DNA of 64,000 bases from an uncultured Planctomycetia bacterium (GTDB lineage: Bacteria > Planctomycetota > UBA8108 > UBA1146): assembly GCA_964412635.1 (NCBI GenBank), contig CAYPPQ010000001.1:46382-110381 (forward strand), read 5' to 3'. Position numbers and translations under genes: made by a program. Below the pieces are notes generated by a model. The model did not search any database. It was given only the letters and a program-made list of their open reading frames with translations, and was not told the DNA's origin. Of this stretch, positions 30,122 through 47,407 are shown piece after piece (position 1 is the stretch's first letter; the number at the start of each line of letters is the position of its first letter).

Positions 30122-30137
30122 CACGATTTTCGTCCCA

Positions 30138-31091: not shown

Positions 31092-31105
31092 CGGGATCCG
31101 GAATC

Positions 31106-32668: not shown

Positions 32669-32669
32669 C

Positions 32670-33617
32670 TCAATTCTCCTTCACATCCTGCATTGGATTG
32701 TTGGCAAGGCAGTCGCGGATCACATGAAGTGCTCCTTCTCGAAGTGCCCCGGTCGCTGGAAAACGAGGTGGTCGAACCGTTTCCGTTCCCATCTCGACCT
32801 CCTTCTGGACCAGCTTGATCAACTGGACGAACTCTGGCACGCAGTCGAGACGAAGCAGCGGAAGAAACCACCGGTAGAGTTCATCTGCCTGACGGGCAAC
32901 TGCCGGGTCATCGAGACCTCGAACCGCCCTGTCAAAGAGAACCACTGATTCCATCGGTAACGCATTCACCAGGCCTGCAACCCAGCCAACCGCGCCTTGA
33001 CGGACCGCTTCTACCACCATGTCGTCGAGACCGGCGAAGAGCGCCAGTCGATCCCCCACCAGCGAATGCACCGCCGTGATCCGACGAGAATCTCCACTGG
33101 AGTCCTTCACCGCCTTCAACTGGGGAAACTTGTCCGCCAGATCTGCGATCCATCCCGGAGGAAAGTCGACTCCGTAGGCGATGGGATTGTTGTAAAGCAT
33201 GCAGGGAAGATCGGTGGCGGCCATCACCGCTTCGACGTGTACTTCCACCTCGAAGAAGGGACCCTTGTGGATGTAGGGTGGCAGTACCATCAAGCCGGAC
33301 GCCCCCATCACCTTGGCGGTGGCCGCCAGGCGACCCGCTTCTCTCGTCGAGGCCGCGGCGATTCCCGGAATCACCGGCACTCTTCCCTCCACCGCCTGAA
33401 CCACGGTATCGAAGATTCGCTGCTTCTCATCGAAGGAGAGTGTCGCTCCCTCGCCAAGAGAGCCACATGGAATGATGCCGGTCGCTCCATGATCCACCAG
33501 CCAGCGACAGTGCTGGGACAGAAAAGCATGATCGACCTCGTCTGATTCGGTGATGGGAGTGGTCACTGCGGGCATCACTCCAGCCCAGGTCAACGAGCGG
33601 GTCGGTGCTGAACTCAT
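32670..33617 (-). CDS. DapA/dihydrodipicolinate-synthase-family lyase (candidate 1-pyrroline-4-hydroxy-2-carboxylate deaminase or KDG-type aldolase)
   Basis: It has the class I aldolase TIM barrel with AVTTPITESDEVDHAFLSQHCRWLVDHGATGII and the Schiff-base Lys region KAVKDSSGD. Confidence 0.75.
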   Translation of the reverse strand: MSSAPTRSLTWAGVMPAVTTPITESDEVDHAFLSQHCRWLVDHGATGIIPCGSLGEGATLSFDEKQRIFDTVVQAVEGRVPVIPGIAAASTREAGRLAATAKVMGASGLMVLPPYIHKGPFFEVEVHVEAVMAATDLPCMLYNNPIAYGVDFPPGWIADLADKFPQLKAVKDSSGDSRRITAVHSLVGDRLALFAGLDDMVVEAVRQGAVGWVAGLVNALPMESVVLFDRAVRGLDDPAVARQADELYRWFLPLLRLDCVPEFVQLIKLVQKEVEMGTETVRPPRFPATGALREGALHVIRDCLANNPMQDVKEN

Positions 33618-33709
33618 CAGTCTCCTCCTGGTTCGATGTGTGGAACAGATACAGATCGTGCCTCATGGGGAGTGATCGGGAAAGAAGTCATCTGGGATCG
33701 ACCAGCGAA

Positions 33710-34663
33710 TCAGGAGTGGCGGGAGCGACGGGTGACCAGCAGAAACAGCACCGGTGCGCCCAGTGCCGCAGTCACCACCCCGACCGGTATCTCCCGGGCA
33801 CTCCAGATCACCCTTCCCACCGCATCGCACAGTGGCAGGAACACCATTCCGAGCAGGATCGAGGCGGGCAGCAACGTCCTCGGCGCCGATCCCAGCAATC
33901 TCCGGATGATGTGAGGACAGATCAGGCCGACAAAGGCGATGGGACCCGAAACTGCCACACACGCCGCCACGCCGATGGAAGCGAGGCCGAGACCGAGCGT
34001 GCGGGTACGTGACACATCGACTCCTCTGGTTCGTGCCCTCTCGATTCCGGAAACCAGCACCTCGAGGGGACGGATCAGCAGCAGCATTCCCACCAGCGCG
34101 ATGCTCACCAGCGGTAGCAACATGAGGATTCGGTTCCAGCCGACCGTCGATAGCGAACCGAGTGACCATCGTTGAGCACCGAGTATTGCAGCAGGATCGA
34201 TGCCGATCTGCAATCCCGAGGCGAGTGCTCCACTCGCCAGTGTCAGTGCAATTCCCGCCAGTAGAACATCCTCGGTACGCGCGCTGTTTCGAGCCGCCAC
34301 CGTCGCGATCACCATCGTCACCGCCAGCGCACCGAGGAAGGCAGCGGCAGGAAGTACAGGGATCCCCAGCAGGGAGGTGGTCCCACCCCCCATCACCAGG
34401 GCAATAAGTACGCCGAGGGTCGCCCCCGCAGTGGTTCCGATGGTGCTCGGAGTCGCCAGCGGGTTCTTCAGCAGGATCTGCATCACCACTCCCGATGCCG
34501 ACAGGACCGCCCCGACCAGCGCCCCCATCAGTGCACGGGGTAGGCGTAAGCGGTTGAGAATCAGATCGCCGCCCTCACCCTCCAGCGAGGGTCCAACCCA
34601 CGCGGTGGAGAACACCACTCCGATCGACAACAGGAGCCAGGGGAACCATCGCAGAGAATTCAT
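33710..34663 (-). CDS. ABC transporter permease, FecCD/BtuC family
   Basis: It is 10-TM FecCD-like. The probable start MNSLRWFPWLLL overlaps the ATPase stop (ATGA); the ORF track extends to 34789. Confidence 0.8.
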   Translation of the reverse strand: MNSLRWFPWLLLSIGVVFSTAWVGPSLEGEGGDLILNRLRLPRALMGALVGAVLSASGVVMQILLKNPLATPSTIGTTAGATLGVLIALVMGGGTTSLLGIPVLPAAAFLGALAVTMVIATVAARNSARTEDVLLAGIALTLASGALASGLQIGIDPAAILGAQRWSLGSLSTVGWNRILMLLPLVSIALVGMLLLIRPLEVLVSGIERARTRGVDVSRTRTLGLGLASIGVAACVAVSGPIAFVGLICPHIIRRLLGSAPRTLLPASILLGMVFLPLCDAVGRVIWSAREIPVGVVTAALGAPVLFLLVTRRSRHS

Positions 34664-35442
34664 CAGAGCAGCGCTTCCTGGCTGGGAATCCAGAACTCGC
34701 GATTGCCGGTAGTGGCTCTCTGAAACGGAATGCCGTGCACCCTCTCGAGCCCCTCCCCGAATCCATCGTCCCCCATTTTCCCCTGCCACTCGATGCGACC
34801 CTGCCTCAGCCCGACCACGTCGACATCGCAGCCATCGACATGACCGAGCAGATGAACGTCATGAATCACGACCAGCACCGTGTTCCCCTCGGCAACCCGA
34901 TTCGAGAGAAAGCGCAAGGTCCTCGCCCGCCATACCGGATCGAGGTGATTGGCAGGTTCATCGAGGAGCCATGTCCCCGATTCCTGGGAGAGCATCGATG
35001 CCAGTTCGACTCTCTGCCTCTCTCCTCCGGAGAGTTCGTTGATCCAGCGCTCGGCAAGTTCCGTTGCACCCGCCTCTTCGAGAGCACGCCGGGCCGCATC
35101 GTGGGCAGATTTCCGCGACTCCTCGAAACGATAGCGGGCGGCGATCACCACATCCTCCACCCTCAATCGTTCCGGCGACAATCCCTGTTGCGGCAACCAC
35201 GCCAGTCGTGCCGCTCGATCGCACAACTTGATCGATGAAAGATCCTCACCATCGAGGCGCACGGTACCGGAATCGAGGGGAGTCAAACCCAGCAACACTC
35301 TCAACAAGGTGCTCTTGCCGGAACCGTTGGGACCGATGATGGCGACCAGTTGCCCCCGCTCCACCTCCAGTGACAACTCCTTCAGGATCGGAACTTCACC
35401 GCCGTTGACGGTCGCTTTCTCGAGGGAGATGACGGTTACCAT
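34663..35442 (-). CDS. ABC transporter ATP-binding protein (FepC/BtuD type)
   Basis: It has Walker A GPNGSGKSTLL, the signature LSGGERQRV, and Walker B LLDEP. Confidence 0.85.
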   Translation of the reverse strand: MVTVISLEKATVNGGEVPILKELSLEVERGQLVAIIGPNGSGKSTLLRVLLGLTPLDSGTVRLDGEDLSSIKLCDRAARLAWLPQQGLSPERLRVEDVVIAARYRFEESRKSAHDAARRALEEAGATELAERWINELSGGERQRVELASMLSQESGTWLLDEPANHLDPVWRARTLRFLSNRVAEGNTVLVVIHDVHLLGHVDGCDVDVVGLRQGRIEWQGKMGDDGFGEGLERVHGIPFQRATTGNREFWIPSQEALL

Positions 35443-36380
35443 CGGCGATCTCCTGGAGAGAGACGGTTCAACTCCGCGGCGATCGAATCGACAAGATCGA
35501 GCAACTCCGGTCCCTCATCGAGGATGCGCTCGTGATGTATCGAACCGATGGTGCCCCGCTGAACAGCCTTCAATGCGGTGAGCTTCTCGTAGCCACCGAC
35601 GATCTGCTGGCGCGCTTCTTGCGACGGTTCTTTTGCCGGAACCAGGTGCAGGATGAAATCGGGATCGATCCGCAATAACTGCTCCAGCGAAATTTGCGGC
35701 GCACCGGAGAGAGGATCTTCGATGGCATTGCTGTATCCAGCAGCGTGGAGGGCAGCCCCGTGCAATGAGTTGGTCTTGATGATCCATGGCCCACCGCTGC
35801 CACCGCTATCGATACCGATCACCAGCAAGACCGTTGGGGCGTCGGCGGGAGCAGCACCCGAGAGCACCGTCTCGAATCGACTCGCCAGAAGGTCTGCCTC
35901 TTGCCGCTTCTTCACCACCTCGCCGATGCTACGAATACTTGCGGCAACCTGTGAAACCGATGACCAGGGCAGGATCAGTGGATCTCCCACCTGTGACAGT
36001 TCCTGCACGGGGACACCGACCGCTGCACGAATCAACAGGGTCGGACTGCCGCTGCGGACAATCCTCTCAAGGTCCGGCACCAGTGCCGTTCCACCTCGCT
36101 GGAGATTCTCGACGGGGGGGCAATAGTCACTGATCATCGCCAGTGAATCATCGGCACCGATCGCCAGCAGCGTGGCAGTGATGCAAGGTGCCAGCGAAAC
36201 CACGGAACCGACCGCATCTACCGATTCAACCGGGACAGAACCCACCGGATCGCCGCTCTGTAACAGACCGGCAAACAGTGAACCCGCCACGGCGAGCAGG
36301 AAGATGATGATGATGGATCCACGGTCCAAGGGTCTCTCCGATCTTGACGTCCTCGTGAAGATACCCGATCCAGCGGCCAC
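35436..36380 (-). CDS. periplasmic substrate-binding protein, class III (FhuD/BtuF/TroA-like)
   Basis: It has a signal/TM segment (IIIIFLLAVAGSLFAG) then about 270 aa with the two-lobe layout of siderophore/cobalamin-type binding proteins. It sits directly upstream of the ATPase and permease. Confidence 0.6.
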   Translation of the reverse strand: MAAGSGIFTRTSRSERPLDRGSIIIIFLLAVAGSLFAGLLQSGDPVGSVPVESVDAVGSVVSLAPCITATLLAIGADDSLAMISDYCPPVENLQRGGTALVPDLERIVRSGSPTLLIRAAVGVPVQELSQVGDPLILPWSSVSQVAASIRSIGEVVKKRQEADLLASRFETVLSGAAPADAPTVLLVIGIDSGGSGGPWIIKTNSLHGAALHAAGYSNAIEDPLSGAPQISLEQLLRIDPDFILHLVPAKEPSQEARQQIVGGYEKLTALKAVQRGTIGSIHHERILDEGPELLDLVDSIAAELNRLSPGDRRW

Positions 36381-36392
36381 GGCATCCCTCGG

Positions 36393-37931
36393 TCACAAAG
36401 AGTCGCCAGATCGCCCCGGAGAGGTCACCCACGGCGGCCGCACCGAGTCGGTTCCATCGTTACGGCGGGGAGACACCGCAGGGATGCAGATCCGTCCCTG
36501 GCACGGGCCCATTCCGACCCGACACAGCATCCTTGCCTCACGGATGGAAGCGGTGCCGGCCAGCTGTTTCGAGGTCACATCTTCACAGCGACAGACCACC
36601 ACATCGTCAGTCACCAGTTGCTGGAGCTGTGGGCGAAGCTGGTGAGCGGCCTCGAGCGCTTCTCCCCAATCTCGATGACGCCTGACCCTGGCGAGAAGAT
36701 GGGCACGAGGGGTTCGTCCCGTCGCGACGATTCCTGCCACCAGCCCGCTATCCAGCGCCGCATCACTGCCGGCGATTCCCGTCGGCTCCCCTGCGCACAG
36801 GATGCCGTCGATCCCACTTCGCTGGAGGCGATCGACGATCACGGCACCGTTTTCTCCGATCCGACATCCGAGTCCCTGGGCTACCCTCGTCTCGGGGATC
36901 AGACCGAATCCCACCGCCAGACCATCCACCTCCTCGACTCGCACACCCTTGTCGGTCCTGAGGTGGACCCGCTCGACTCGTCCATCTCCCTCCACCTTGA
37001 TGGGCCAGCAAGAGGAGAGTTTCTCGACGCCACGAAGCGATTTCCACAGTTGCATCGCCTGCTTCATCCGCGACCTCGAGCTGATCAGCGGCAACAGCAA
37101 TTGCAGACGATCGATGTGGGAGGCCTGTTCGACCAGGAGCGGTTTCGCTCCCTCCTCGACGGCGAGTTGCGCCACCGCCAGGAGCAGCGGCCCGGTCCCC
37201 GCCACCACCAGTCGCTTGCCCCGAACCTGCAATCCTCCCTTGATCAGCGATTGCAACGCTCCGGCACCGACGACCCCGGGCAAGGTCCAGCCGGGGAAGG
37301 GAAGGAAGCGTTCTCTTGCGCCGGTGGCGACGATGATCTGCTGGCACTTCACCGACACCGTGTCGCCGGTCAACACCGAGGTCGCCAGCAGTTCACCTGC
37401 CTTGCCATCGACGACGCTGTAGCCGGACAGCCAGCGAACTCCACCCTTCTCCGCCCGCGCCAACCAGCTGCGGGCAGCGTCGGGAATGTGCCGTCGATGG
37501 GCCCAGATCCGACCGCCTGGCTGCGGCGACTCATCGATCACGAGGACATCTGCACCCAGTTCCGAGGCGGCGCAGGCGGCGGCGATCCCTGCCGGGCCAC
37601 CGCCGATGATGGCGACGGAAACCTCTTCTTGACGCTGTTGAACCGCGCCCACCGCCGGCAGCGGAGATGGGGTGAGATCCTGTTCCGTCTCGATGCTCAT
37701 GCCGTCGCGCACCGGAACCAGACAACTTCTCACCCCTCGATGTCCGTCGACGGTGATTCGACACTCGTGACAGACTCCCATGGCACATAACGCACCTCGG
37801 GGTTCACCCCCCACCGACTTGCGGAGACTCACGACCCCGACACCCATCAGGGCTGCGGCCAGTTGCATCCCCTCCTCGACCTCGATGATGGCGCCGTCGA
37901 CACTGATCCGTACAGACTTCGGATCACTCAT
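36393..37931 (-). CDS. fused [2Fe-2S]-ferredoxin / FAD-pyridine-nucleotide-disulfide oxidoreductase / BFD-like [2Fe-2S] protein (HcnA+HcnB / opine-oxidase-subunit-A-like)
   Basis: The N-terminus has CAMGVCHEC 2Fe-2S cysteines. The Rossmann fold is VAIIGGGPAGIAAA. The C-terminal BFD-like segment is VVCRCEDVT...GMGPCQGRIC. I chose the internal start MSDPKSVRI, whose ATG overlaps the TGA of the upstream gene; the ORF track extends to 38171. Confidence 0.7.
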   Translation of the reverse strand: MSDPKSVRISVDGAIIEVEEGMQLAAALMGVGVVSLRKSVGGEPRGALCAMGVCHECRITVDGHRGVRSCLVPVRDGMSIETEQDLTPSPLPAVGAVQQRQEEVSVAIIGGGPAGIAAACAASELGADVLVIDESPQPGGRIWAHRRHIPDAARSWLARAEKGGVRWLSGYSVVDGKAGELLATSVLTGDTVSVKCQQIIVATGARERFLPFPGWTLPGVVGAGALQSLIKGGLQVRGKRLVVAGTGPLLLAVAQLAVEEGAKPLLVEQASHIDRLQLLLPLISSRSRMKQAMQLWKSLRGVEKLSSCWPIKVEGDGRVERVHLRTDKGVRVEEVDGLAVGFGLIPETRVAQGLGCRIGENGAVIVDRLQRSGIDGILCAGEPTGIAGSDAALDSGLVAGIVATGRTPRAHLLARVRRHRDWGEALEAAHQLRPQLQQLVTDDVVVCRCEDVTSKQLAGTASIREARMLCRVGMGPCQGRICIPAVSPRRNDGTDSVRPPWVTSPGRSGDSL

Positions 37932-39106
37932 CGGTGCACGCCAGCGAGGCACAGTTCGATTCGCTCGGCAGCCTGTCCCGCATCGGAGATGGCACCCGCC
38001 AGAGATGCTCTTCTGGCCACCTCGAGGAGGTGATCCAGATCCCGTTGCAGATCGATGCGGTGCAGCAGCATCGGATGTGGTTGGTGTCCGTTGAGCCACG
38101 CCGTGAAGGCGAGTCCCGCCTTGTACAGATGAGTCGGTGCTTCGAAGACCTTCTGACCGTACTTTTCGCACGGCTCCATCCAGCGTCGATAGCCCTCGAC
38201 ATCCCCCGCCGCCAGGTGTCTCAGCGCACGACCGGCCGGTACCGCAACACCATCGAGCACTCCCAGCAGCGCGTGACTGAAATCTCCGGCAGGAACCTGT
38301 CGATCCCCCAGGGACACCGACCTGGTCGGGTGGGTTCCCGTCCCTTCCATCAGCGAACTGAAGTGGAAGTCGTCCCCGGTGAGGACGATCTGATCCCGCT
38401 CGCTGCAGCGGCGGCGCACATCCACCTCTAGATCGTGGTCCAGCATCGACATCTTGACCCCTCGAACCTTTTCGGGGTCGATGTCGAGTATTCGCTGCAG
38501 AGAATCTCCGGGAAAGTAACCCTCCAGTTCCGCCAGGAACATCGGGCCGAGCCAGTGGATGAAGAGCGGGCCTTCACACTGTTCGAAGATGGAGCGATAG
38601 GTGCTGACGAACTGATCCTCATCACACTTCCAGTGACACAAGAGCGGCATCGGCAAGATGATGGGAATGCCCCCTGCACCCTGGATGATTCCCACCTGTT
38701 CGACCACTCCATCGATGAGCGTTTGCACCTGTTCGATTCGATCCAGGTGATCTGCTCCGGCACCGGCGATGAAACCGGTCTCCAGTTGCAGGGCACCGCA
38801 TTCCTCGATGAGCCGACGCGCTGCCGGCCATCCCAGTTCGAAACGCTGCGCCGTGTCCATCGCCTCGGCGATGCCAAAACCCTGGGTCGCCAGGTGCTGA
38901 CGAAATTCCATCGTCCGTTGCCAGTCGACCTGTTCGCACACCTCGGATCCTTCAGATTCTTGATGATAGGAGTCCTTCAAGATGATGTGGGCCGCAGCGT
39001 ATGCGATGCGCACCGCCGCGGCAGGTTGCGGTTCTGGCTGCCGCTCCAGCACCCCGTCCTCGATGATGACCGGATCCCCGAACGGATTGGCAAGTTCGAT
39101 CTTCAT
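37928..39106 (-). CDS. conserved hypothetical protein (about 392 aa, soluble, function unknown)
   Basis: A long ORF embedded in the coupled operon. The start MKIELANPFGD overlaps the Nramp-like stop (ATGA). I recognise no motif in it. Confidence 0.55.
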   Translation of the reverse strand: MKIELANPFGDPVIIEDGVLERQPEPQPAAAVRIAYAAAHIILKDSYHQESEGSEVCEQVDWQRTMEFRQHLATQGFGIAEAMDTAQRFELGWPAARRLIEECGALQLETGFIAGAGADHLDRIEQVQTLIDGVVEQVGIIQGAGGIPIILPMPLLCHWKCDEDQFVSTYRSIFEQCEGPLFIHWLGPMFLAELEGYFPGDSLQRILDIDPEKVRGVKMSMLDHDLEVDVRRRCSERDQIVLTGDDFHFSSLMEGTGTHPTRSVSLGDRQVPAGDFSHALLGVLDGVAVPAGRALRHLAAGDVEGYRRWMEPCEKYGQKVFEAPTHLYKAGLAFTAWLNGHQPHPMLLHRIDLQRDLDHLLEVARRASLAGAISDAGQAAERIELCLAGVHR

Positions 39107-40536
39107 CCGCTGAGTTTCTCCCACCAACCTGGCACTGCCGTGACCGTCTTCCACACCAGGAAAACGCTGAGCACCACGGTCGCCAGCAGGATCGACCCCT
39201 GCCACAGCAGCGCCCGGATGCCGGTGGGCCTGTCCTCACCGAGATATCTCGCAGATCGCTGCATCTTGAGGATTCCGATGTACACCGCGGGAAGCAAGAA
39301 CCCGGTCAGGATGGTGGTCGGTAGTGCGATCCAGAAGGCGATGTCCCCCCAGTAGACCGCTCCCAGAAAACCGGGGGCGGGGAGCAAGCATGCCAGACGG
39401 AAGCGGGTCGATCCGACCTTCCAGCCGAAGGTCTCACAGGCAGCAAAGCCGCAACAGACCATGTGCATCGTGATGCTACTGGTGACCATGCCGAGCAATC
39501 CCAGGTCGAAGAGGATTCTCGAACTGTCGGCTCCGAAGGTGGTCCCGAGGATCTGCGCCGCATGCTCGGGCTTGAATCCCTTTCCCGGGAACGGGATTCC
39601 ATCCGGCCCGAAAGTATTCGCCGCTGCGATGACGATCAGTGAGGTGGTCAGTAGATAGGGGAGAAACATCCCCGCAAACAGATCGAACCTCGCCAGCGAA
39701 CGGTGTTCTTTTCCCCAGCCTTTCGCCAGCAGCGAATACGGATAGAGAAAAACCATGTTGGCACCGATCGCCGCCGCCAGACCTGCCACGACGATGCTGA
39801 GTGCATCCATCGACTTCGATTCATCTCCCGCAGGGGTGTAAACCTCTCCCACTCCTCCCGGAATGAAACCGGAGAAGAAACCGCCCGGATCGGCGATCCC
39901 TGTCTTGACCACCACGGCGCCGAAGCACAGCACGATCAACCACACCATCACCTGCATACTTCGCTCGAACAGTTTCAGTAATGCAGGGGAACGGCCATAG
40001 GAGAAGGACCAGGTCACCGCCCAGGCCAGCACCAGCAGTCCGCCACCCCAGCGCGGAATCGGATTGCCGGTGACGGCACCGATGTCCTCGATGGCAGCGG
40101 AAGCGAGGGCGTACTGGGCAAAGTGCCAGATGACACTGGAAAGAACTGCACCGGCGATGAAGGCATGAGCGTAGAAGGGACCGGCGTACTCACGGATCGC
40201 CGGCAACGGGCGTTTTCCGGTGGACAGCGTCTGATGCGCCACCGCCGACAGAACTGCCACCCCCAGCAGCATCGAGATGGGGAACACCCACAACAGCTGG
40301 TACCCGAAGGCTCCCCCTGCCAGCAACGTGGCCGCCGCCGTGCCACCGCCGAGGGTCAACGAACTCTGCAGGTATCCCGGTCCGCCACGCCTGAGAAAGG
40401 CACCCCATCGACGGGTGATCGGTGCCTCATCGAGGGTGGTCAGCCACCGTTTCTCCTCGGCCAGTGCCGCGGGATCGGGGGGGGCCACCATCGGTAGTTC
40501 GATCTTCCGGGGAGTCTCTCCTTCGATATCACTCAA
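39103..40536 (-). CDS. Nramp/MntH-family-related membrane transporter with divergent metal-binding motifs
   Basis: It has the GPGYLQSSLTLGGGTAAATLLAGGAFGYQLLWV segment. Canonical Nramp has GPG-L-S-AY-DPGN-ATD-QAGA-FGY-LLWV here, so the DPGN Asp/Asn are replaced by GGGT. It has about 11 TM helices. An MHM replaces MPH in the TM6-like segment. Confidence 0.6.
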   Translation of the reverse strand: MSDIEGETPRKIELPMVAPPDPAALAEEKRWLTTLDEAPITRRWGAFLRRGGPGYLQSSLTLGGGTAAATLLAGGAFGYQLLWVFPISMLLGVAVLSAVAHQTLSTGKRPLPAIREYAGPFYAHAFIAGAVLSSVIWHFAQYALASAAIEDIGAVTGNPIPRWGGGLLVLAWAVTWSFSYGRSPALLKLFERSMQVMVWLIVLCFGAVVVKTGIADPGGFFSGFIPGGVGEVYTPAGDESKSMDALSIVVAGLAAAIGANMVFLYPYSLLAKGWGKEHRSLARFDLFAGMFLPYLLTTSLIVIAAANTFGPDGIPFPGKGFKPEHAAQILGTTFGADSSRILFDLGLLGMVTSSITMHMVCCGFAACETFGWKVGSTRFRLACLLPAPGFLGAVYWGDIAFWIALPTTILTGFLLPAVYIGILKMQRSARYLGEDRPTGIRALLWQGSILLATVVLSVFLVWKTVTAVPGWWEKLSG

Positions 40537-41981
40537 CGGGATTCCCTCTCCCTCGCCCTCGCCTTGGCCGATTTCAACTCGGCAGCAGCGGGGTGAGACT
40601 TGTAGTGGTCATCGAGCGGGAAACAGCCGCTCAACAATCCGTTTCTCGGCGCAGTGGTACAGTCGCTGAAGGTTCTGCATACCAGCTTCTTCGGCATCGC
40701 GCGGCCATGGATGACATCTCTCGGCAGTTGCGGGTAGGAGAGCATCGATCGGCCAAGGCCGATCACGTCCTGGTGACCCGCAGCGATCTCGTGCTGAGCC
40801 ACGGCGGCAAGCCATTCCTGCAGGTAAGTCCAGCCGGTTCCCACCAGACCAGCAGTAGAGAAGTGCTGACGTACACTCCTGGCCGCCTGGATGTGACTGG
40901 CAACTCCCACCAGGGGATCTTCGGGAGGTGCATAACCATCACTGGGTGGATACTGGGCGGGTCGCTGACGATGGGGACACCAGTACGGAGATCCGATCGT
41001 CAGGTTGAACCACTCGACTCCTTCATCGAGTAGCAGCTGGATCAACTGGAACGGTTCATCCCACTGCGGTGTTCGTGGATCCCCGGGATCGAGGCCAAAC
41101 CCGTGCTCGTATCTCTCCCCCGACGGCCAGTCCGGTTCCCCATCGCCGCCGGTGGACTTGCGGAAGGGAATCATATCGGTGATCGAGATGCGAACGGCGA
41201 CGTCGATTCCGGGAACCTCGCTAGCGACTGTAGCGATGATGTCTCGCAACAGACGGCTTCTTCCCTGCAGATCACCTCCGTAGCGACCGGGGCGACTCCG
41301 TGCCGACAGCAGTTCGTGCATCAGGTAGCCGTGACACGCCTTGATATCGACGAAATCAAATCCGACCTTGTGCGCACACCTCGCCACCGAGATGTATCGC
41401 TCGGCAATCGCTTCCAGCTCTCCATCGGTGAGGATCTGATCGCTAGTGGCGGATACCCTGCTATCGAGGATCGGATGTTCGAAGGCGATGCGCGGCGCTG
41501 GACCGTCGGATGTGGGACGAGACCAGCGACCGGAGTGGGTCAGTTGCAATCCCACCACCGAATCCTTCGGCGCCTCTTCGCCGGCGAGGGTGTGCCCCTC
41601 CTTCAACGCCGACAGAAGCGATTCCAGCGACCGGCAGGTCGAATCATCGTCGTGATGGAACAGCTGGTTGGGATTCGCCTTCCCATCTTCCCTGACGGCA
41701 AATGCCTCACCTCCCCAGATCAGTGCCGCACCACTCTCCCCGAAGTTTTGCCAGCGCCTGAGGGTGTGTTGCGAAGGAGATCCATCTTGCAGGGCATCCC
41801 AGCCCTCCATCGGATGAACTGCGAAGCGATTCGACAGCTTCCAGCCGCCCTTCTCGAGGGGGGATGCGAGGGGGCCGAAAGCCTCCACCTCATCATCGAG
41901 ATCGAGCTGCGGATCGATCGACTTCCAGTGATCGCGAAAGGACTCCACATCCCGATACCGATTGGGAGACTTGATCTTCAA
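40533..41981 (-). CDS. Old Yellow Enzyme family NADH:flavin oxidoreductase (FMN-dependent ene-reductase-like)
   Basis: It has the OYE signature FDFVDIKACHGYLMHELLS (compare HAAHGYL). The probable start is the TTG at 41981, after a GGAGGA RBS and overlapping the enolase TGA. The ORF track extends to 42080. Confidence 0.75.
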   Translation of the reverse strand: MKIKSPNRYRDVESFRDHWKSIDPQLDLDDEVEAFGPLASPLEKGGWKLSNRFAVHPMEGWDALQDGSPSQHTLRRWQNFGESGAALIWGGEAFAVREDGKANPNQLFHHDDDSTCRSLESLLSALKEGHTLAGEEAPKDSVVGLQLTHSGRWSRPTSDGPAPRIAFEHPILDSRVSATSDQILTDGELEAIAERYISVARCAHKVGFDFVDIKACHGYLMHELLSARSRPGRYGGDLQGRSRLLRDIIATVASEVPGIDVAVRISITDMIPFRKSTGGDGEPDWPSGERYEHGFGLDPGDPRTPQWDEPFQLIQLLLDEGVEWFNLTIGSPYWCPHRQRPAQYPPSDGYAPPEDPLVGVASHIQAARSVRQHFSTAGLVGTGWTYLQEWLAAVAQHEIAAGHQDVIGLGRSMLSYPQLPRDVIHGRAMPKKLVCRTFSDCTTAPRNGLLSGCFPLDDHYKSHPAAAELKSAKARARERESR

Positions 41982-43384
41982 CCCTTCTCCTCCATGCGGC
42001 TTGCAATCACCGTTCTTCTGCTTCCCTCGGATGGACGCACGGTACAACCGTAGCCTTCGCAATCGAGTGAAGAGATGCACAGCACCCCGTTCTCGATGAG
42101 AAGTTCATCACCTCTGTGGATCGAACGGTACAGGTCGGGATGATCCTTCAGTAGTTGTGAGGATTCATCGCTGGTGAGGTGATCGAGTCCCCTGAAGTAG
42201 TGGTGACCATTTCTCTCGACGTGAGTCAAACCGAGCGCCGCAACGGTCAAGAGATCCTGATGCAATCCCCACGGTGGAAGACAGGTCAAATCCTCGCCGC
42301 TGACAAACGCTCCTGCACCATGGGCCTGGCACAATCCTTGATGGGCGATCGACCGGGACACTCCCTTGCAGTTCTTCGATGAGACTCCCAGGTACCCGAG
42401 CCCTAACGCCTCCGGAAATGCCTCGGGACCATGGTCCGCCTCGTCGATGATCACCGGCCCATGGCGAGACAACTCGGTCGGAGCAGAAGCCGCCTCGAAG
42501 GTCTTTGATCTGGGAACCGGCTGTTCGATGCTGACGATCGCCTCGAGGAAAGCGACCCCATCTGCTGACATGTTCAGTTCGTCGAGAACTGCAGCGAGGG
42601 ATGCTGGATCTTCGTACTGCTCGTTCCCATCGAGTGTCACACGATAGCCGTCTCCCGATTCTCGTCGCAGGATCGCTGCGATCTGCTGGAGCCTCTCCAG
42701 GTCATGATCGGGGTCTCCACCGACCTTGACCTTGAACCAGCGGAGGCCGTGACGACGGATATCCTCCACCAGCGTCACCGGCAGACCATCTTCCACCGAA
42801 TCATCCGATCTCTCCTCGAGATCATCCAGCAATCCGACGGTGTGGCGCACCGAGATCGTTGGCGGTAGCGGAGACGGTGTGAACTTCCAGTCCTGAAGTT
42901 GCGGATGAAATCGATGAGGTTCGATTCCGAACAGTCCCACCTCCAGCGATTGAAGGAAGGGAAGTCCGACTCCACGGCACGCGGCATCCATCAGGGCTCT
43001 TTCCCAGATGGCACAGCCGAGTCCCCGGGTCAGGCGATCTTCCGCAGTGACAGGAGTTGCCAGAACCCGATCTTCCAGCATCCGCCAGTAGTGATCGAAG
43101 ACGGTGGAACAGGATCCATCGAGCAATACATCTCCCGCCATCGAGATGCTATCGACGAGAGACTGGATATCCTCCTCCACCGATCGCAGGAGGTTTTTCT
43201 CGAACCAGCGGGGAACCAGTAACTCGGAGGTGTATCCCCTCAGTAACGTTCCCGTCGATGTTTCTGCGGTGACGGTGGCAATCGCCATCGGTGCATCGGT
43301 GAGGGTATGTACCCCGAAACGAAAGGGGATGCGCGTTGTGCATTCCTGGATCTCAACTTCGAGTTCCTTCACCGAGATACGCAC
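41978..43384 (-). CDS. enolase-superfamily enzyme (mandelate racemase / muconate lactonizing enzyme family)
   Basis: It has the MR/MLE N-terminal capping domain plus barrel with WFKVKVGGDPDHD...TLDGNEQY...IIDEAD metal-ligand spacing, and is 468 aa. Confidence 0.7.
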   Translation of the reverse strand: MRISVKELEVEIQECTTRIPFRFGVHTLTDAPMAIATVTAETSTGTLLRGYTSELLVPRWFEKNLLRSVEEDIQSLVDSISMAGDVLLDGSCSTVFDHYWRMLEDRVLATPVTAEDRLTRGLGCAIWERALMDAACRGVGLPFLQSLEVGLFGIEPHRFHPQLQDWKFTPSPLPPTISVRHTVGLLDDLEERSDDSVEDGLPVTLVEDIRRHGLRWFKVKVGGDPDHDLERLQQIAAILRRESGDGYRVTLDGNEQYEDPASLAAVLDELNMSADGVAFLEAIVSIEQPVPRSKTFEAASAPTELSRHGPVIIDEADHGPEAFPEALGLGYLGVSSKNCKGVSRSIAHQGLCQAHGAGAFVSGEDLTCLPPWGLHQDLLTVAALGLTHVERNGHHYFRGLDHLTSDESSQLLKDHPDLYRSIHRGDELLIENGVLCISSLDCEGYGCTVRPSEGSRRTVIASRMEEKG

Positions 43385-43501
43385 GGGACTCCCTTTCGAT
43401 GGATTGCAGGTCGTGATCTCCAGTGAAGATCATCTCGACAGGTCGTGGCGACCTCGACGGCAGTCACCCCCCTCACCATCGTGCCGACACATCGGCAGGG
43501 A

Positions 43502-44635
43502 TCAAGAAGTGGCCACCACCCTGGCTGGATCATACGGCTGCGGATCGATGGGAGCAGCCTGACCGAGGATCGAGGAGCAGATCAGTTGCGCCGCAGCGGG
43601 GGCCTGGGTGATCCCCAGTCCCTCGAATCCCGCCGCGATCCACACCGCCGGAACTGCCGGTAACGGGCCGATGAGTGGCCTCGAATCACCGGTTGCCGCC
43701 CGTACACCGCACCAGGTGCGGACGATGGGCAGGCCCGACAGACCGGGAACGAATCTTTCTCCCCGCTCGATGATCTGATCGATCAGCTGTCGATCGACGC
43801 TTCCGGTACTCCTCGAGGATCGACTGGAACCGATGCACAGCTGGCCGGTCGAGCGGGGAAGGATCGCGCACGCCACCGCCTCCTCCACCTTGCCGTGAGC
43901 ACCCTTCTGGTAGCCCGCCTCCACCACGTGATGGGAGAGGATTCCGGTTCCCCGGGCGGTGATGGCGAGCTGTCCTTCTCTTGGGAAAATCGAAACCTCG
44001 ACCCCCGTCTCTTGACACAGATCGAGCGCATCGATTCCGGTGGCGATGACGATGGCATCCGCCTCCTTGACGAGTCCGTCCTCGAGGTGAACCCGATTCG
44101 ATTCAACTCGCATCACTCGAACTCCGCAGGTCAGCTTCGCTCCCCCTTTGACCGCCTCCTCCATCACCGCTGCGGTGGCGATCGGAGCATAGAGGACACC
44201 GTCATCGGGAACTCTCATGCCGCCGACCAGATCAGCAGCGAGAGCAGGTTCCAGCTCCAGAATCTGTGCGCTGTCGACCATCTCGGTGTTGATTCCTGCA
44301 CCCTGTAATCTGGTCGATGCTTCGCCCAGCTGACGGAAGGATTCCTCATCCTCCGCCATCCACAACGTGCCCGACTCGATGAACCCATCGGGGCAAGTCG
44401 TGATGGGAGAATCTTCACGCCAGATCTGTCTTCCGAGGATGCACAGTCGCATCCCCGCTTCGTCCCCATCGTTGACGACGATGTGACCCATCCCTGCTGC
44501 GGTGGCTCCCCGAACTCCCGCTGCCTCACCCGCCTCGAGTACTTCCACTTCAGCACCGGCTCTGACCAGTTCCCTCGCACAGCACGCGCCAACGATCCCG
44601 GCACCCAGAACCAGCACCTTGATGTTGCCCTTCAT
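43502..44635 (-). CDS. FAD-dependent oxidoreductase (DadA/HcnC/opine-oxidase-subunit-B-like amino-acid dehydrogenase)
   Basis: It starts MKGNIKVLVLGAGIVGACCARELVRAGAEVEVLE (GxGxxG plus acidic residue) and has the DAO-family fold. The ORF track extends to 44695, but the ATG at 44635 fits the dinucleotide-fold start. Confidence 0.8.
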   Translation of the reverse strand: MKGNIKVLVLGAGIVGACCARELVRAGAEVEVLEAGEAAGVRGATAAGMGHIVVNDGDEAGMRLCILGRQIWREDSPITTCPDGFIESGTLWMAEDEESFRQLGEASTRLQGAGINTEMVDSAQILELEPALAADLVGGMRVPDDGVLYAPIATAAVMEEAVKGGAKLTCGVRVMRVESNRVHLEDGLVKEADAIVIATGIDALDLCQETGVEVSIFPREGQLAITARGTGILSHHVVEAGYQKGAHGKVEEAVACAILPRSTGQLCIGSSRSSRSTGSVDRQLIDQIIERGERFVPGLSGLPIVRTWCGVRAATGDSRPLIGPLPAVPAVWIAAGFEGLGITQAPAAAQLICSSILGQAAPIDPQPYDPARVVATS

Positions 44636-45720
44636 CGTCCTACCTCGCTGGCGATGACCGCCTGTCGGTAGACCTCTACAGTTTCCGTGGCACATCGCTG
44701 CCAGGTGAAGGTACCGGCGTACTCCATCGCTCTCTTTCTTCGATCGGTGTCATGTCCCACTGCTCTGTGCAGTGCCTGTGCAATCGACTGCGGATCTTGC
44801 TGCTGACACGTTTCCGCAGCTCCAGCAGCGATCTCCGGGGTTGCGCCGCTGGCAGAGATCACCACCGGAGTGCCACAAGCCATCGCTTCCAGCACGGGAA
44901 GCCCGAATCCCTCGTAATGAGTGCAATAGAGGAGCGCACGAGCACTGGAGTAGAGGGCAGGAAGAACATCGTCGCCGAGCCAACCCACCAGCTGCACCCT
45001 GCCCATTCCCACCTCATCGATCCAGTCGATCAGTTCATCGCCACCGAATGTTGGATCGCCGGCGATGACGAGGGGCACATCTCCCAGCTCTGCCGCCAGG
45101 AACCCCCGCACCATTCCCCGGATGTTCTTTCGCTTCGACAGATCTCCGACGTAGATGACAGCATCGGATGGAATCTGTCGTTCCTGCAGCAAGCGATCGG
45201 CTCGATCACGCTCGACCGGTCTGAACAACGGATCGATCCCGTGGCGAACCACCACCACCTTGTCCGGATCGCAATCGACTCCATCGAGGAAATCTCGGCG
45301 GGTCGTATCACTGACTGCGATGATCCTGTGACAATCGGTGGCTACCGACTGATACGCCTCCAGTTTCTTGGCTCGGAACTGCGCAGTGGAAATCGACCCC
45401 CCCACTCGCTCTTCTGGAAGCAAGTGAACGACATCGTGAAGGGTCGCGACCCTGGGAGAATTCCATCGAGGCACCCTCGAGTCGGTGACATGGATCACAT
45501 CCGATCGACCACCCGGTGGCCACCACGGTTCCTGGATCCAGAACCTCTTCACGGAAGGAATGCGTAGTCGGTGGCGATGGCGATGGAGATGAGAGCAGCG
45601 GGTTCCCAGGGTCAGTGAAGTCCCCAGGTCCGCAAGTGCCCTCGCCAGCTGGGTGGTGTAACGACCGATCCCGGTTGGACGAGGAGTACAAGCTGCAGTG
45701 GCATCGATGGCGATCCGCAC
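44632..45720 (-). CDS. glycosyltransferase family 4 (GT-B)
   Basis: The C-terminal signature is EGFGLPVLEAMACGTPVV. It has a 4-nt overlap with the downstream DadA-like gene. Confidence 0.75.
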   Translation of the reverse strand: MRIAIDATAACTPRPTGIGRYTTQLARALADLGTSLTLGTRCSHLHRHRHRLRIPSVKRFWIQEPWWPPGGRSDVIHVTDSRVPRWNSPRVATLHDVVHLLPEERVGGSISTAQFRAKKLEAYQSVATDCHRIIAVSDTTRRDFLDGVDCDPDKVVVVRHGIDPLFRPVERDRADRLLQERQIPSDAVIYVGDLSKRKNIRGMVRGFLAAELGDVPLVIAGDPTFGGDELIDWIDEVGMGRVQLVGWLGDDVLPALYSSARALLYCTHYEGFGLPVLEAMACGTPVVISASGATPEIAAGAAETCQQQDPQSIAQALHRAVGHDTDRRKRAMEYAGTFTWQRCATETVEVYRQAVIASEVGR

Positions 45721-45753
45721 GTTACCTCCCGTCAGAGAATAGGACAGGATCGA

Positions 45754-46692: not shown

Positions 46693-46703
46693 GGCAGCCA
46701 CCT

Positions 46704-47384: not shown

Positions 47385-47407
47385 GTGGCGATCTCATTTC
47401 TCTGTGG

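What the first reader, a model, noticed from the sequence alone, without database searches (positions are those of the whole stretch)
39103..40536. Nramp-family homolog lacking the canonical DPGN/MPH metal-binding residues, embedded in a catabolic operon
- Seen in sequence: the TM1 region reads GPGYLQSSLTLGGGTAAATLLAGGAFGYQLLWV. Nramp/MntH has GPG(F/L)L(M/V)S(V/I)AY(M/L)DPGN(F/I)ATD(L/I)QAGAQFGY(T/S)LLWV. The Asp and Asn of DPGN, which ligate Mn/Fe, are replaced by Gly and Thr. The TM6 MPH is MHM.
- Both flanking genes overlap it by ATGA. The neighbours are flavoenzymes and a binding-protein-dependent importer, not metal homeostasis genes.
- Established knowledge: Nramp belongs to the APC/LeuT-fold superfamily. 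Nramp-related transporters with altered binding sites, such as NRMT, transport other substrates.
- Inference: this may be a repurposed Nramp-fold carrier for the organic substrate or product of the pathway.
Basis: partly seen in the sequence, partly recalled or inferred. Interest (0 to 1): 0.55.

Follow-up and report, generated by a model that had tools for sequence, protein, structure and literature searches.

The report
Nramp-fold carrier without metal-binding residues
This planctomycete gene encodes a transporter with the fold of the Nramp manganese/iron importers in which every metal-binding residue is replaced by a small or uncharged one, and it is translationally coupled to three unstudied enzymes, so it most likely carries a small organic acid rather than a metal.

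Summary
The gene is real. It lies on the minus strand at 39103-40536 and encodes 477 aa. It matches Pfam Nramp, and an AlphaFold model (pLDDT 84.7) finds only Nramp-family structures as close matches.

The loss of DPGN is confirmed: the motif reads GGGT. "MHM" lies in TM8, and the true counterpart of MPH is G-A-N. The TM3 glutamate is Gln. No acidic residue remains in TM1 or TM6.

This signature is nearly invariant across a large, unstudied family. The family occurs mainly in Planctomycetota and Acidobacteriota and is annotated "divalent metal cation transporter".

The conserved partners are not the hydroxyproline genes. Those accompany the gene only in the window's own lineage. The conserved partners are an OYE-like flavoenzyme, a DUF993 (DHDPS-like) protein and a divergent enolase-superfamily enzyme, joined by 4-base overlaps.

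Best reading, at about 50% confidence: a secondary carrier for a small carboxylate that this enzyme module metabolises.

Nramp-related proteins without DPGN/MPH are already described, mostly as uncharacterised. A different Nramp-related group (PxpT/YcsG) is implicated in 5-oxoproline uptake. This is therefore a new variant of a known kind, of moderate interest.

The parts
39103..40536 (-). Nramp-related carrier gene ('NRL'), 477 aa. TTG start overlaps the upstream stop as TTGA; TGA stop at 39103-39105.
   Evidence: ORF and translation. Pfam Nramp E=2.7e-24. AF2 model with pLDDT 84.7, pTM 0.87 and 11 TM helices. Foldseek top hits are all Nramp family. The semi-conserved N-terminus M(S/T)(D/E)..EG in homologs supports the upstream start.
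40339..40350 (-). G63-G64-G65-T66, the counterpart of the DPGN metal-binding motif in the unwound centre of TM1.
   Evidence: Alignments to 10ky and 7qia. The model shows a helix break at residues 62-63. In 121 homologs G63 and G65 are invariant and position 66 is T or S.
40285..40383 (-).
   Evidence: Q57 and T61 are invariant in 121 homologs.
39757..39774 (-). A255-A-I-G258-A259-N260, the true counterpart of A-x-x-M-P-H in TM6. Met becomes Gly, Pro becomes Ala/Val, His becomes Asn.
   Evidence: Profile alignment to BfraNramp and EleNRMT and MAFFT. The model shows a helix break at 262-263. N260 and M261 are invariant; G258 is present in 105 of 121.
40111..40128 (-). TM3 W137-H-F-A-Q141-Y142. 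Q141 (or Y142; the alignment is ambiguous by one residue) takes the place of the TM3 Glu (DraNramp E134 / BfraNramp E116). F139 takes the place of the TM3 Asp.
39460..39468 (-). It lies in TM8.
   Evidence: Residue positions. Model helix 337-370. It aligns with the TM8 SSTIT region of Nramps.
40533..41981 (-). OYE-like FMN oxidoreductase. Likely 482 aa from a TTG at 41981 that overlaps the enolase-like stop as TTGA. It is the conserved upstream partner.
   Evidence: Pfam Oxidored_FMN E=2.5e-22. Weak PDB matches to OYE/chromate reductases. Junction. Adjacent in 28 of 70 GTDB loci with enough flank, including all 14 at >=60% identity.
41978..43384 (-). Divergent enolase-superfamily protein of MLE-subgroup type, 468 aa.
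   Evidence: Pfam MR_MLE_C E=1.4e-11. No PDB match with the single sequence. A profile gives only weak matches to MLE-type enzymes. Invariant K218, K220, D252, E287, D314/E315, K337, K340.
37928..39106 (-). DUF993 protein, 392 aa, DHDPS-like. ATG overlaps the carrier stop as ATGA. It is the conserved downstream partner.
   Evidence: Pfam DUF993 E=2e-84. PDB 4dnh 'uncharacterized protein' E=1.5e-48. PGAP names relatives 'dihydrodipicolinate synthase family protein'. Adjacent in 33 of 75 GTDB loci.
36393..37931 (-). 2Fe-2S (Fer2_4) plus FAD/NAD (Pyr_redox_2) fusion. It resembles the two accessory subunits of heteromeric D-hydroxyproline dehydrogenase or opine oxidase. ATG at 37931 overlaps the DUF993 stop as ATGA.
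   Evidence: Pfam; junction. Present only in the window's lineage. The subunit assignment rests on established knowledge, not on a test here.
33710..36380 (-). ABC importer of the FecCD type: Peripla_BP_2 binding protein (35436-36380), ATPase (34663-35442), FecCD permease (33710-34789; start uncertain).
   Evidence: Weak NCBIfam matches to heme/B12-type binding proteins, all far below cut-off. Lineage-specific.
30138..33617 (-). DHDPS-family enzyme (32670-33617), aldehyde dehydrogenase (31106-32668) and EamA permease (30138-31091). These are the likely lower part of the hydroxyproline route to 2-oxoglutarate.
43502..46701 (-). DAO-family flavoenzyme (43502-44695), GT4 glycosyltransferase (44632-45720) and 4-hydroxyproline-epimerase-like protein (45754-46701).
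   Evidence: NCBIfam 4-hydroxyproline epimerase scores 368 bits against a cut-off of 450.

Best explanation
The gene encodes an 11-helix LeuT/Nramp-fold secondary carrier. It belongs to a large, uncharacterised, deep branch of Pfam PF01566.

Every position that binds Mn/Fe in canonical Nramps, or Mg in NRMT, is replaced by a small or uncharged residue:
- TM1 Asp becomes Gly and Asn becomes Thr/Ser.
- TM6 Met becomes Gly and His becomes Asn.
- TM3 Glu becomes Gln.

I infer that the enlarged, glycine-rich, uncharged pocket, formed by the unwound centres of TM1 and TM6, binds a small organic solute rather than a hard divalent cation. The most likely solute is a carboxylate, because the co-transcribed enolase-superfamily enzyme must act on a carboxylic acid.

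I also infer that the carrier feeds, or removes the product of, the three enzymes translationally coupled to it: the enolase-like, OYE-like and DUF993 proteins. In the window's own lineage this module has been inserted into a hydroxyproline-to-2-oxoglutarate gene array.

Shown: the fold, the residue replacements, their conservation, and the gene linkage.
Inferred: the transport activity, the chemical class of the substrate, and the direction of transport.
For: - Fold and family: Pfam Nramp. AF2 model with pTM 0.87 and breaks in TM1 and TM6 at the expected places. Foldseek finds EleNRMT, DraNramp (TM-score 0.84 on the target), BfraNramp, DMT1 and a YcsG model first. Other APC carriers follow at E-values several orders of magnitude weaker.
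- Ligand loss: alignments. No Asp or Glu in TM1 or TM6, and no conserved acid at the site. The protein scores below every NCBIfam Nramp/MntH cut-off: 36 against 50, and 27 against 430.
- Purifying selection on a new site: Q57, T61, G63, G65, N260, M261 and M350 are invariant in 121 homologs. They are largely kept in relatives of only 33-40% identity.
- Context: OYE-like and DUF993 genes flank the carrier in all loci at >=60% identity, and in about a quarter of loci below that. The Hyp genes appear only in the window's lineage.
- Coupling: 4-base overlaps link the enolase-like, OYE-like, carrier, DUF993 and Fe-S flavoprotein genes.
- The enolase-like protein keeps the KxK, metal-ligand and second-Lys residues of enzymes that abstract the alpha-proton of a carboxylate.
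- No recognised metal-uptake or metal-regulator gene was seen next to the gene in about 170 related loci, and no riboswitch is present in the window.
- Precedent: another Nramp-related group with Gly at the same two positions (PxpT/YcsG) is required for growth on 5-oxoproline (PMC13274462; alignment).
Against: - No transport data exist for any member of this family.
- Apart from the contested PxpT/YcsG case, every characterised PF01566 protein carries a metal cation. YcsG itself was reported as a Mn2+ importer (PMC10448178).
- The pocket keeps soft ligands: invariant M261 and M350, and H138 in this subfamily. These could bind a soft metal ion.
- The binding site is nearly identical across members with very different neighbours: a sugar-type ABC system, TAT-signal Gfo/Idh/MocA oxidoreductases, URO-D pairs, or no enzymes at all. 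This is odd for a pathway-specific substrate and would suit a common ion or cofactor.
- The window array also holds a FecCD-type importer, a class that usually takes up metal chelates.
- I could not inspect model coordinates, so the geometry of the pocket is inferred from alignment only.
Confidence: 0.5

Rival explanations
1. It is still a metal-ion transporter, but with a different selectivity. One option is a soft metal ion held by thioether and imidazole ligands (M261, M350, H138). Another is a fully hydrated ion held by carbonyl, hydroxyl and amide oxygens. Either could supply or balance a cofactor for neighbouring enzymes, for example Mg2+/Mn2+ for the enolase-superfamily protein.
For: - All solved and assayed PF01566 proteins carry metal cations: Mn/Fe, Mg in EleNRMT (PMC8806188) and Al in NRAT (PMC10115441).
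- YcsG was reported as the Mn2+ importer MntG (PMC10448178).
- M261 and M350 are invariant, and H138 is present in 119 of 121.
- The near-identical site across very different gene contexts fits a common ion.
- RND efflux genes lie two to three genes upstream in about 15 acidobacterial loci.
- A FecCD-type importer lies in the window array.
Against: - No carboxylate ligand remains. Even NRMT keeps the TM1 Asp and the TM3 Glu.
- H138 is not conserved in the long subfamily, where the position is Cys, Ala or Ser.
- No metal regulator, metallochaperone or riboswitch is nearby.
- Tight translational coupling to three enzymes is unusual for an ion transporter.
- The RND pumps give only generic family matches.
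Confidence: 0.2
2. It is the hydroxyproline (or hydroxyproline-derivative) importer of the surrounding catabolic array.
For: - In the window and its close relatives the gene lies in a co-directional array with a 4-hydroxyproline-epimerase-like gene, a DAO-family gene, an Fe-S/FAD fusion, a DHDPS-family gene and an aldehyde dehydrogenase.
- The Fe-S/FAD gene is coupled to the module by an ATGA overlap.
- PxpT/YcsG, from another Nramp-related group, is linked to 5-oxoproline, a proline-like ring acid (PMC13274462).
Against: - The Hyp genes are present in 9 of 9 loci of the window's lineage but in 0 of 38 adequately long loci of other family members. The site residues do not change.
- The conserved partners are the OYE-like, DUF993 and enolase-like genes, which have no known role in hydroxyproline catabolism.
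- The array has two other candidate importers: the FecCD-type ABC system and the EamA permease.
Confidence: 0.1
3. It carries a small inorganic anion or a neutral molecule, or it acts mainly as a membrane sensor or anchor for the enzyme module rather than as a carrier.
For: - Glycine-rich unwound segments can bind anions through backbone amides (inference).
- The context varies while the site stays fixed.
- A YcsG-FabL complex model in the PDB (9a52, seen) shows that Nramp-related proteins can have protein partners.
Against: - The complete LeuT-type core, including the family's gating-helix motifs, is conserved, as expected for an active carrier.
- There is no extra soluble domain in this subfamily.
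Confidence: 0.1

Closest known systems
Canonical Nramp / SLC11 / MntH (DraNramp, ScaDMT, EcoDMT, BfraNramp, DMT1)
   Same: - Same Pfam family.
- Same 11-TM LeuT-type fold with unwound TM1 and TM6.
- Shared flanking motifs: GPG before TM1, and (F/Y)G(Y/F)xLLWV.
   Different: - DPGN becomes GGGT and MPH becomes GAN.
- The TM3 Glu/Asp become Gln/Phe. The TM10 Gln position is not conserved.
- About 20% identity.
- Scores far below the NCBIfam MntH cut-offs.
- Not in a metal-regulated context.
NRMT (Nramp-related Mg2+ transporters; EleNRMT 7qia; PMC8806188, PMC4072509)
   Same: - Best single-sequence PDB match (E=2e-6) and top Foldseek match.
- It also lacks the Met and the Asn of the canonical site and lacks the proton-pathway residues.
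   Different: NRMT keeps the TM1 Asp (DxxG), has TxxA/T in TM6 and keeps the TM3 Glu. The window protein has Gly, AxxG and Gln at these places.
PxpT / YcsG (MntG), the 'G-motif 3' Nramp-related group (PMC13274462, PMC10448178, PMC12873925)
   Same: - Gly at the TM1 Asp position (IGPGF against LGGGT) and Gly at the TM6 Met position (TVGGY against AIGAN).
- Encoded inside an enzyme operon for a ring-shaped carboxylate.
- Structurally similar: 9a52_A E=2.9e-9.
   Different: - No detectable sequence similarity by BLASTP or hhalign.
- About 70 residues shorter.
- Its partners are PxpABC 5-oxoprolinase genes, not OYE-like/DUF993/enolase-like genes.
- Its own substrate is disputed: 5-oxoproline or Mn2+.
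Uncharacterised 'Nramp-related' groups / Slc11 outgroup (Gaudet-lab preprint PMC12873925; Cellier PMC9606685)
   Same: These are described as a paraphyletic, diverse set within PF01566 that lacks DPGN/MPH and the proton-pathway residues, and as 'entirely uncharacterized' apart from NRMT and MntG. The window protein fits this description.
   Different: - I could not see the figures, so I cannot say which named group it falls in, if any.
- Cellier's outgroup is said to keep the TM3 Glu, which this family has lost (Q141).
APC-superfamily amino-acid carriers (AdiC, ApcT, LAT1, BasC)
   Same: LeuT fold. They use glycine-rich unwound TM1 and TM6 segments whose backbone atoms bind the carboxylate and amino groups of the substrate (established knowledge). 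This is the analogy behind the proposed mechanism.
   Different: Only distant structural matches: Foldseek E around 1e-5 and TM-score around 0.5. There is no sequence match. The protein is not a member of these families.

Membership tests
Canonical Nramp/SLC11 (MntH) | PF01566 domain and LeuT-type fold with 11-12 TM helices | tested here: met
   Pfam E=2.7e-24. AF2 model with 11 TM helices. Foldseek top hits.
Canonical Nramp/SLC11 (MntH) | TM1 D-P-G-N metal-binding motif | tested here: not met
   G63-G64-G65-T66 at the aligned positions. No DPGN string.
Canonical Nramp/SLC11 (MntH) | TM6 A-x-x-M-P-H motif | tested here: not met
   A255-A-I-G258-A259-N260. No MPH string.
Canonical Nramp/SLC11 (MntH) | TM3 acidic residues of the proton pathway (DraNramp D131, E134) | tested here: not met
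   F139 and Q141/Y142 at the aligned positions.
Canonical Nramp/SLC11 (MntH) | TM9 arginines of the proton pathway | tested here: inconclusive
   R378 and R380 lie at the start of the TM9 segment. Their equivalence to the DraNramp TM9 arginines was not established.
Canonical Nramp/SLC11 (MntH) | Score above the curated NCBIfam cut-offs (MntH, nramp, Nramp_1) | tested here: not met
   27.1 against 430, 27.3 against 272.5, and 36.2 against 50.
Canonical Nramp/SLC11 (MntH) | Transport of Mn2+/Fe2+ | not testable with these tools
   Needs uptake assays.
NRMT (Mg2+ transporters) | TM1 D-x-x-G signature | tested here: not met
   EleNRMT D55 aligns with G63, and G58 aligns with T66.
NRMT (Mg2+ transporters) | TM6 T-x-x-A/T signature | tested here: not met
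   TTIAPW of EleNRMT aligns with AAIGAN.
NRMT (Mg2+ transporters) | Conserved TM3 Glu | tested here: not met
   The Glu of EleNRMT aligns with Q141.
PxpT/YcsG (MntG) group | Sequence similarity to YcsG/PxpT | tested here: not met
   BLASTP E=3.6. hhalign probability 0.1%. Both were run against a YcsG-like protein encoded next to pxpA/pxpB.
PxpT/YcsG (MntG) group | Encoded with pxpABC 5-oxoprolinase genes | tested here: not met
   No such genes in the window. One long-subfamily locus of 82 lies next to a hydantoinase A/B fusion.
PxpT/YcsG (MntG) group | Gly at the TM1 Asp position and at the TM6 Met position | tested here: met
   This is a shared feature and is not sufficient for membership.
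Nramp-related proteins lacking DPGN/MPH (PMC12873925; Slc11 outgroup, PMC9606685) | In PF01566, without the metal-binding motifs and without the proton-pathway residues | tested here: met
Nramp-related proteins lacking DPGN/MPH (PMC12873925; Slc11 outgroup, PMC9606685) | Placement in one of the named groups of the published tree | not testable with these tools
   Figures and supplements are not held.

The most novel reading that the evidence does not exclude
A whole branch of the Nramp family has been converted from metal-ion transport to transport of an organic carboxylate. The branch comprises hundreds of species of Planctomycetota and Acidobacteriota and thousands of metagenomic sequence clusters. 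In marine Planctomycetota it forms a fixed four-gene unit with an orphan enolase-superfamily enzyme, an OYE-like flavoenzyme and DUF993. That unit would be an undescribed catabolic pathway whose substrate the carrier imports.
Probability: 0.4. Interest if true: 0.65.

Novelty: new variant of a known kind. Interest (0 to 1): 0.5.

Why it matters
- Annotation pipelines name this family 'divalent metal cation transporter' or 'manganese transport protein'. If the family carries an organic solute, thousands of annotations, and metal-budget inferences for marine Planctomycetota and sponge-associated Acidobacteriota, are wrong.
- The family offers a clean natural experiment on how a LeuT-fold ion site is rebuilt. 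Every ligand is exchanged while the scaffold is kept.
- It bears on the open dispute over whether Nramp-related proteins such as YcsG/PxpT carry Mn2+ or 5-oxoproline.
- The tightly coupled module (enolase-like, OYE-like, carrier, DUF993) gives four proteins of unknown function a shared context. That makes their substrate experimentally approachable.

Tried and rejected
1. The 5-oxoprolinase link. One long-subfamily member lies directly upstream of a 1324-aa hydantoinase A/B fusion. That raised the idea of a 5-oxoproline-type substrate. A scan of 82 loci found this adjacency only once, so it is not general evidence.
2. Riboswitch or other RNA element. Rfam found nothing at E<=0.1 in 28-52 kb.
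3. Relatives on annotated plasmids. Only distant haloarchaeal homologs (about 25% identity) in uninformative contexts.
4. DUF993 function. No paper mentions it. Its only structure is 'uncharacterized protein' 4dnh. In Proteobacteria it sits with CoA-transferase, acyl-CoA dehydrogenase, ETF, sugar-phosphate isomerase and glycerate kinase genes, and never with an Nramp-like gene. No substrate could be derived.
5. Enolase-like protein. The single sequence finds nothing in the PDB. The profile finds only weak MLE-subgroup matches, so no specific reaction could be assigned.
6. An alternative ATG start at about 40491 (M16). I considered it less likely, because homologs lacking that Met share a semi-conserved N-terminus upstream.
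7. Rejected.
8. Pocket geometry and docking. Model coordinates are not exposed, so this was not done.
9. My simple greedy gene caller missed the carrier gene in 19 loci. The adjacency counts in the report therefore come from tblastn.

The YcsG-like reference sequences were found using a probe written from memory. Only the retrieved real sequences and their annotations were used.


Full report
**What is at the coordinates**

The interval 39103-40536 holds one ORF on the minus strand, 477 codons long. Its TTG start overlaps the stop codon of the upstream gene as TTGA. Its TGA stop overlaps the ATG of the downstream gene as ATGA.

The protein matches Pfam PF01566 (Nramp) over residues 68-434 with E=2.7e-24. 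It falls below all three curated NCBIfam Nramp models: 36 bits against a cut-off of 50, 27 against 430, and 27 against 272.

The window comes from a Planctomycetota genome. A metagenome-assembled genome contig carries the same 16 genes at 93-98% protein identity (L010).

**Checking the observation**

Three sources agree on its alignment. These are HMMER alignments of the protein and of a 34-sequence family profile to solved structures (BfraNramp 10ky and EleNRMT 7qia), and an independent MAFFT alignment. All put G63-G64-G65-T66 on D-P-G-N. The loss of Asp and Asn is therefore real.

The TM6 statement is not correct. 'MHM' is residues 357-359, which lie inside the model's helix 337-370. That helix is TM8. 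The counterpart of A-x-x-M-P-H is A255-A-I-G258-A259-N260.

Other ligand positions are also changed. The TM3 glutamate kept by canonical Nramps and by NRMT aligns with Q141, or with Y142 in one alignment. The TM3 aspartate aligns with F139. The TM10 glutamine position is not conserved (invariant columns). No Asp or Glu lies in TM1 or TM6.

**Fold**

An AlphaFold2 model built on the family alignment has mean pLDDT 84.7 and pTM 0.87. It shows 11 transmembrane helices, with breaks in TM1 at residues 62-63 and in TM6 at residues 262-263. These are the places where Nramps are unwound.

Foldseek against the PDB returns only Nramp-family entries at the top. They are EleNRMT, DraNramp (TM-score 0.84 normalised on the target), BfraNramp, DMT1, NRAMP1, NRAT and a YcsG model. 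Other LeuT-fold carriers (CodB, LAT, AdiC, ApcT) follow at E-values several orders of magnitude weaker.

A profile search of PDB sequences finds nothing outside the Nramp family.

**The family**

The word-indexed search gave 945 hits. The best 120 are 50-94% identical and almost all come from Planctomycetota MAGs. They are labelled 'divalent metal cation transporter' or 'manganese transport protein'.

A full HMMER scan of 1.84 billion cluster representatives gave 121 representatives at E<=1e-30 and 671 at E<=1e-3.

A scan of one genome per GTDB species found 381 relatives. They are mainly in Planctomycetota and in Acidobacteriota (Thermoanaerobaculia, 'Ca. Multivorans', Holophagales, Vicinamibacteria).

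In 121 aligned homologs the new site is almost frozen:
- TM1 reads GPGYLQS(A/S)LTLGGG(T/S)A.
- TM6 reads GL(A/S)AA(V/I)G(V/A)NM(V/L)FLYPYSLLAR.
- Q57, T61, G63, G65, N260, M261, P266 and M350 are invariant.

The same signature persists in a much larger subfamily of 560-680 residues. This subfamily is typical of Pirellulaceae. It is only 34% identical to the window's family and carries an insertion of about 130 residues in the TM7-TM8 loop (hhalign E=1e-95).

**Gene context**

I compared the window's 16 neighbouring proteins with 80 GTDB loci by tblastn.

| Identity to window carrier | DUF993 directly downstream | OYE-like directly upstream | Enolase-like further upstream | Full set of Hyp genes |
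|---|---|---|---|---|
| >=78% (window's lineage) | 13 of 13 | 11 of 11 | 11 of 11 | 9 of 9 |
| 60-77% | 4 of 4 | 3 of 3 | 2 of 2 | not assessable |
| <60% | 16 of 58 | 14 of 56 | 12 of 54 | 0 of 38 |

Independent gene calls with Pfam labels show the bare module in other Planctomycetota. It appears as OYE-like, carrier, DUF993, or with the enolase-like gene in front, with the genes overlapping by four bases.

In the window, the TTGA, TTGA, ATGA and ATGA junctions link five genes in order: enolase-like, OYE-like, carrier, DUF993 and the Fe-S/FAD fusion.

Members outside this pattern have different neighbours:
- Acidobacterial members sit beside a sugar-type ABC system or stand alone.
- One Planctomycetota member lies between GHMP-kinase/nucleotidyltransferase genes and Gfo/Idh/MocA plus 3-keto-disaccharide-hydrolase genes.
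- In 82 loci of the long subfamily the recurrent neighbours are TAT-signal Gfo/Idh/MocA oxidoreductases (17 loci), a pair of URO-D-family proteins flanking the gene (12 loci) and a 3-hydroxyisobutyrate-dehydrogenase-like protein (7 loci).

No recognised metal-uptake or metal-regulator gene turned up next to the gene. No riboswitch is present in the window.

**The partners**

- Enolase-like protein. It is very divergent. The single sequence finds no PDB match, and the profile finds only weak matches to MLE-subgroup enzymes. It keeps K218-x-K220, D252, E287, D314/E315 and K337/K340. From established knowledge of the enolase superfamily, these residues are the metal ligands and the acid/base lysines of enzymes that abstract the alpha-proton of a carboxylate. 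The substrate of the module is therefore very probably a carboxylic acid.
- OYE-like protein. It matches only the first two-thirds of the Old Yellow Enzyme barrel.
- DUF993. It has one solved structure of unknown function (4dnh) and no literature. PGAP names its relatives 'dihydrodipicolinate synthase family protein'. In Proteobacteria it occurs in different, CoA-dependent contexts.

**The surrounding array**

The window's lineage also carries the following genes:
- a 4-hydroxyproline-epimerase-like gene (368 bits against a cut-off of 450);
- a DAO-family gene;
- an Fe-S/FAD fusion that resembles the accessory subunits of heteromeric D-hydroxyproline dehydrogenase;
- a DHDPS-family gene;
- an aldehyde dehydrogenase.

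This is the known bacterial route from hydroxyproline to 2-oxoglutarate; the assignment rests on established knowledge and was not tested here. The array also holds a FecCD/Peripla_BP_2 ABC importer and an EamA permease, so there are three candidate transporters. Because the Hyp genes are lineage-specific and the carrier's site is not, hydroxyproline is unlikely to be the family's substrate.

**What is known**

- Canonical Nramps bind Mn/Fe through DPGN and MPH.
- NRMTs (DxxG, TxxA/T) carry Mg2+ (PMC8806188, PMC4072509). NRATs carry Al3+ (PMC10115441).
- Cellier describes PF01566 as Slc11 plus an outgroup plus NRMT. He reports that the outgroup keeps one charge, the TM3 Glu (PMC9606685). That Glu is lost here.
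- A 2026 preprint from the Gaudet laboratory describes a paraphyletic, diverse set of 'Nramp-related' groups lacking DPGN, MPH and the proton pathway. It names 'NRMT-like' and 'G-motif 3' and calls the others 'entirely uncharacterized' (PMC12873925). I could not see its figures.
- 'G-motif 3' contains B. subtilis YcsG, reported as the Mn2+ importer MntG (PMC10448178).
- The C. glutamicum homolog PxpT is required for growth on 5-oxoproline and is proposed to import it (PMC13274462).

I retrieved real YcsG/PxpT-like genes lying next to pxpA/B/C. They show no sequence similarity to the window protein. They do share Gly at the Asp position (IGPGF) and Gly at the Met position (TVGGY).

**Interpretation**

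Shown:
- an Nramp-fold protein;
- replacement of all ligands by small or uncharged residues;
- strong conservation of the new site;
- tight, recurrent coupling to three enzymes.

Inferred:
- The protein is an active carrier.
- The two Gly substitutions enlarge the pocket and expose backbone groups, as in APC amino-acid carriers.
- The cargo is a small carboxylate handled by the module.

I put this reading at about 0.5. The main caveats are these:
- Known PF01566 substrates are nearly all metals.
- The site keeps two invariant methionines, and a histidine in this subfamily.
- An identical site occurs in very different gene contexts, which would also suit a common ion.

I put a metal or other inorganic ion at about 0.2, hydroxyproline itself at about 0.1, and other roles at about 0.1.

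**Verdict**

The existence of such proteins is already recognised. This clade, its frozen site and its enzyme module have not been described, as far as the searched literature shows. I rate it a new variant of a known kind, with interest 0.5.

Noticed in passing
window 30001-48000: The co-directional gene array has a higher G+C content (0.59-0.64 in 2-kb windows) than both flanks (0.55-0.59). The array is syntenic in related MAGs.
   Followed up: no
window 33710-36380 (-): A FecCD / Peripla_BP_2 type ABC importer lies inside an amino-acid catabolic array. This class usually takes up siderophores, heme or B12. The binding protein scores far below all NCBIfam cut-offs, and its substrate is unclear.
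   Followed up: partly
window 36393-37931 (-): A single polypeptide combines a 2Fe-2S (Fer2_4) domain with a Pyr_redox_2 FAD/NAD domain. It looks like a fusion of the two accessory subunits of heteromeric D-hydroxyproline dehydrogenase or opine oxidase, and it is ATGA-coupled to DUF993.
   Followed up: partly
window 44632-45720 and 46704-47384 (-): A GT4 glycosyltransferase and a class-3 O-methyltransferase are interleaved with the hydroxyproline-epimerase and DAO genes. Both are conserved in place in related MAGs. Their role in the array is unexplained.
   Followed up: no
window 41978-43384 (-); L004, L017, L031 and others: The enolase-superfamily protein of the module is an orphan. It has no PDB match at E<=1e-3 with the single sequence and no NCBIfam model, yet all catalytic-type residues are conserved.
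   Followed up: partly
L097:8001-13925: A long-subfamily carrier lies directly upstream of a 1324-aa Hydant_A_N / Hydantoinase_A / Hydantoinase_B fusion, which resembles a eukaryote-type 5-oxoprolinase. This is the only such case among 82 loci.
   Followed up: yes
L150, L176 and 10 other metagenome loci: In 12 of 82 loci the long-subfamily carrier is flanked on both sides by URO-D-family proteins, with gaps of 22 bases and an overlap of 3 bases. This is a second fixed enzyme-carrier unit of unknown function.
   Followed up: partly
L014 and L024: Contigs labelled 'Bacillota bacterium' (L014) and 'Proteobacteria bacterium' (L024) carry the Planctomycetota-type array or module at 70-83% identity. 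Mis-binned or mislabelled MAGs are likely.
   Followed up: no
L002, L003 and about 15 acidobacterial loci: In Thermoanaerobaculia and 'Ca. Multivorans' the carrier gene is preceded by a divergently transcribed DUF7133/HEAT/cytochrome-c protein and by an RND efflux system.
   Followed up: no
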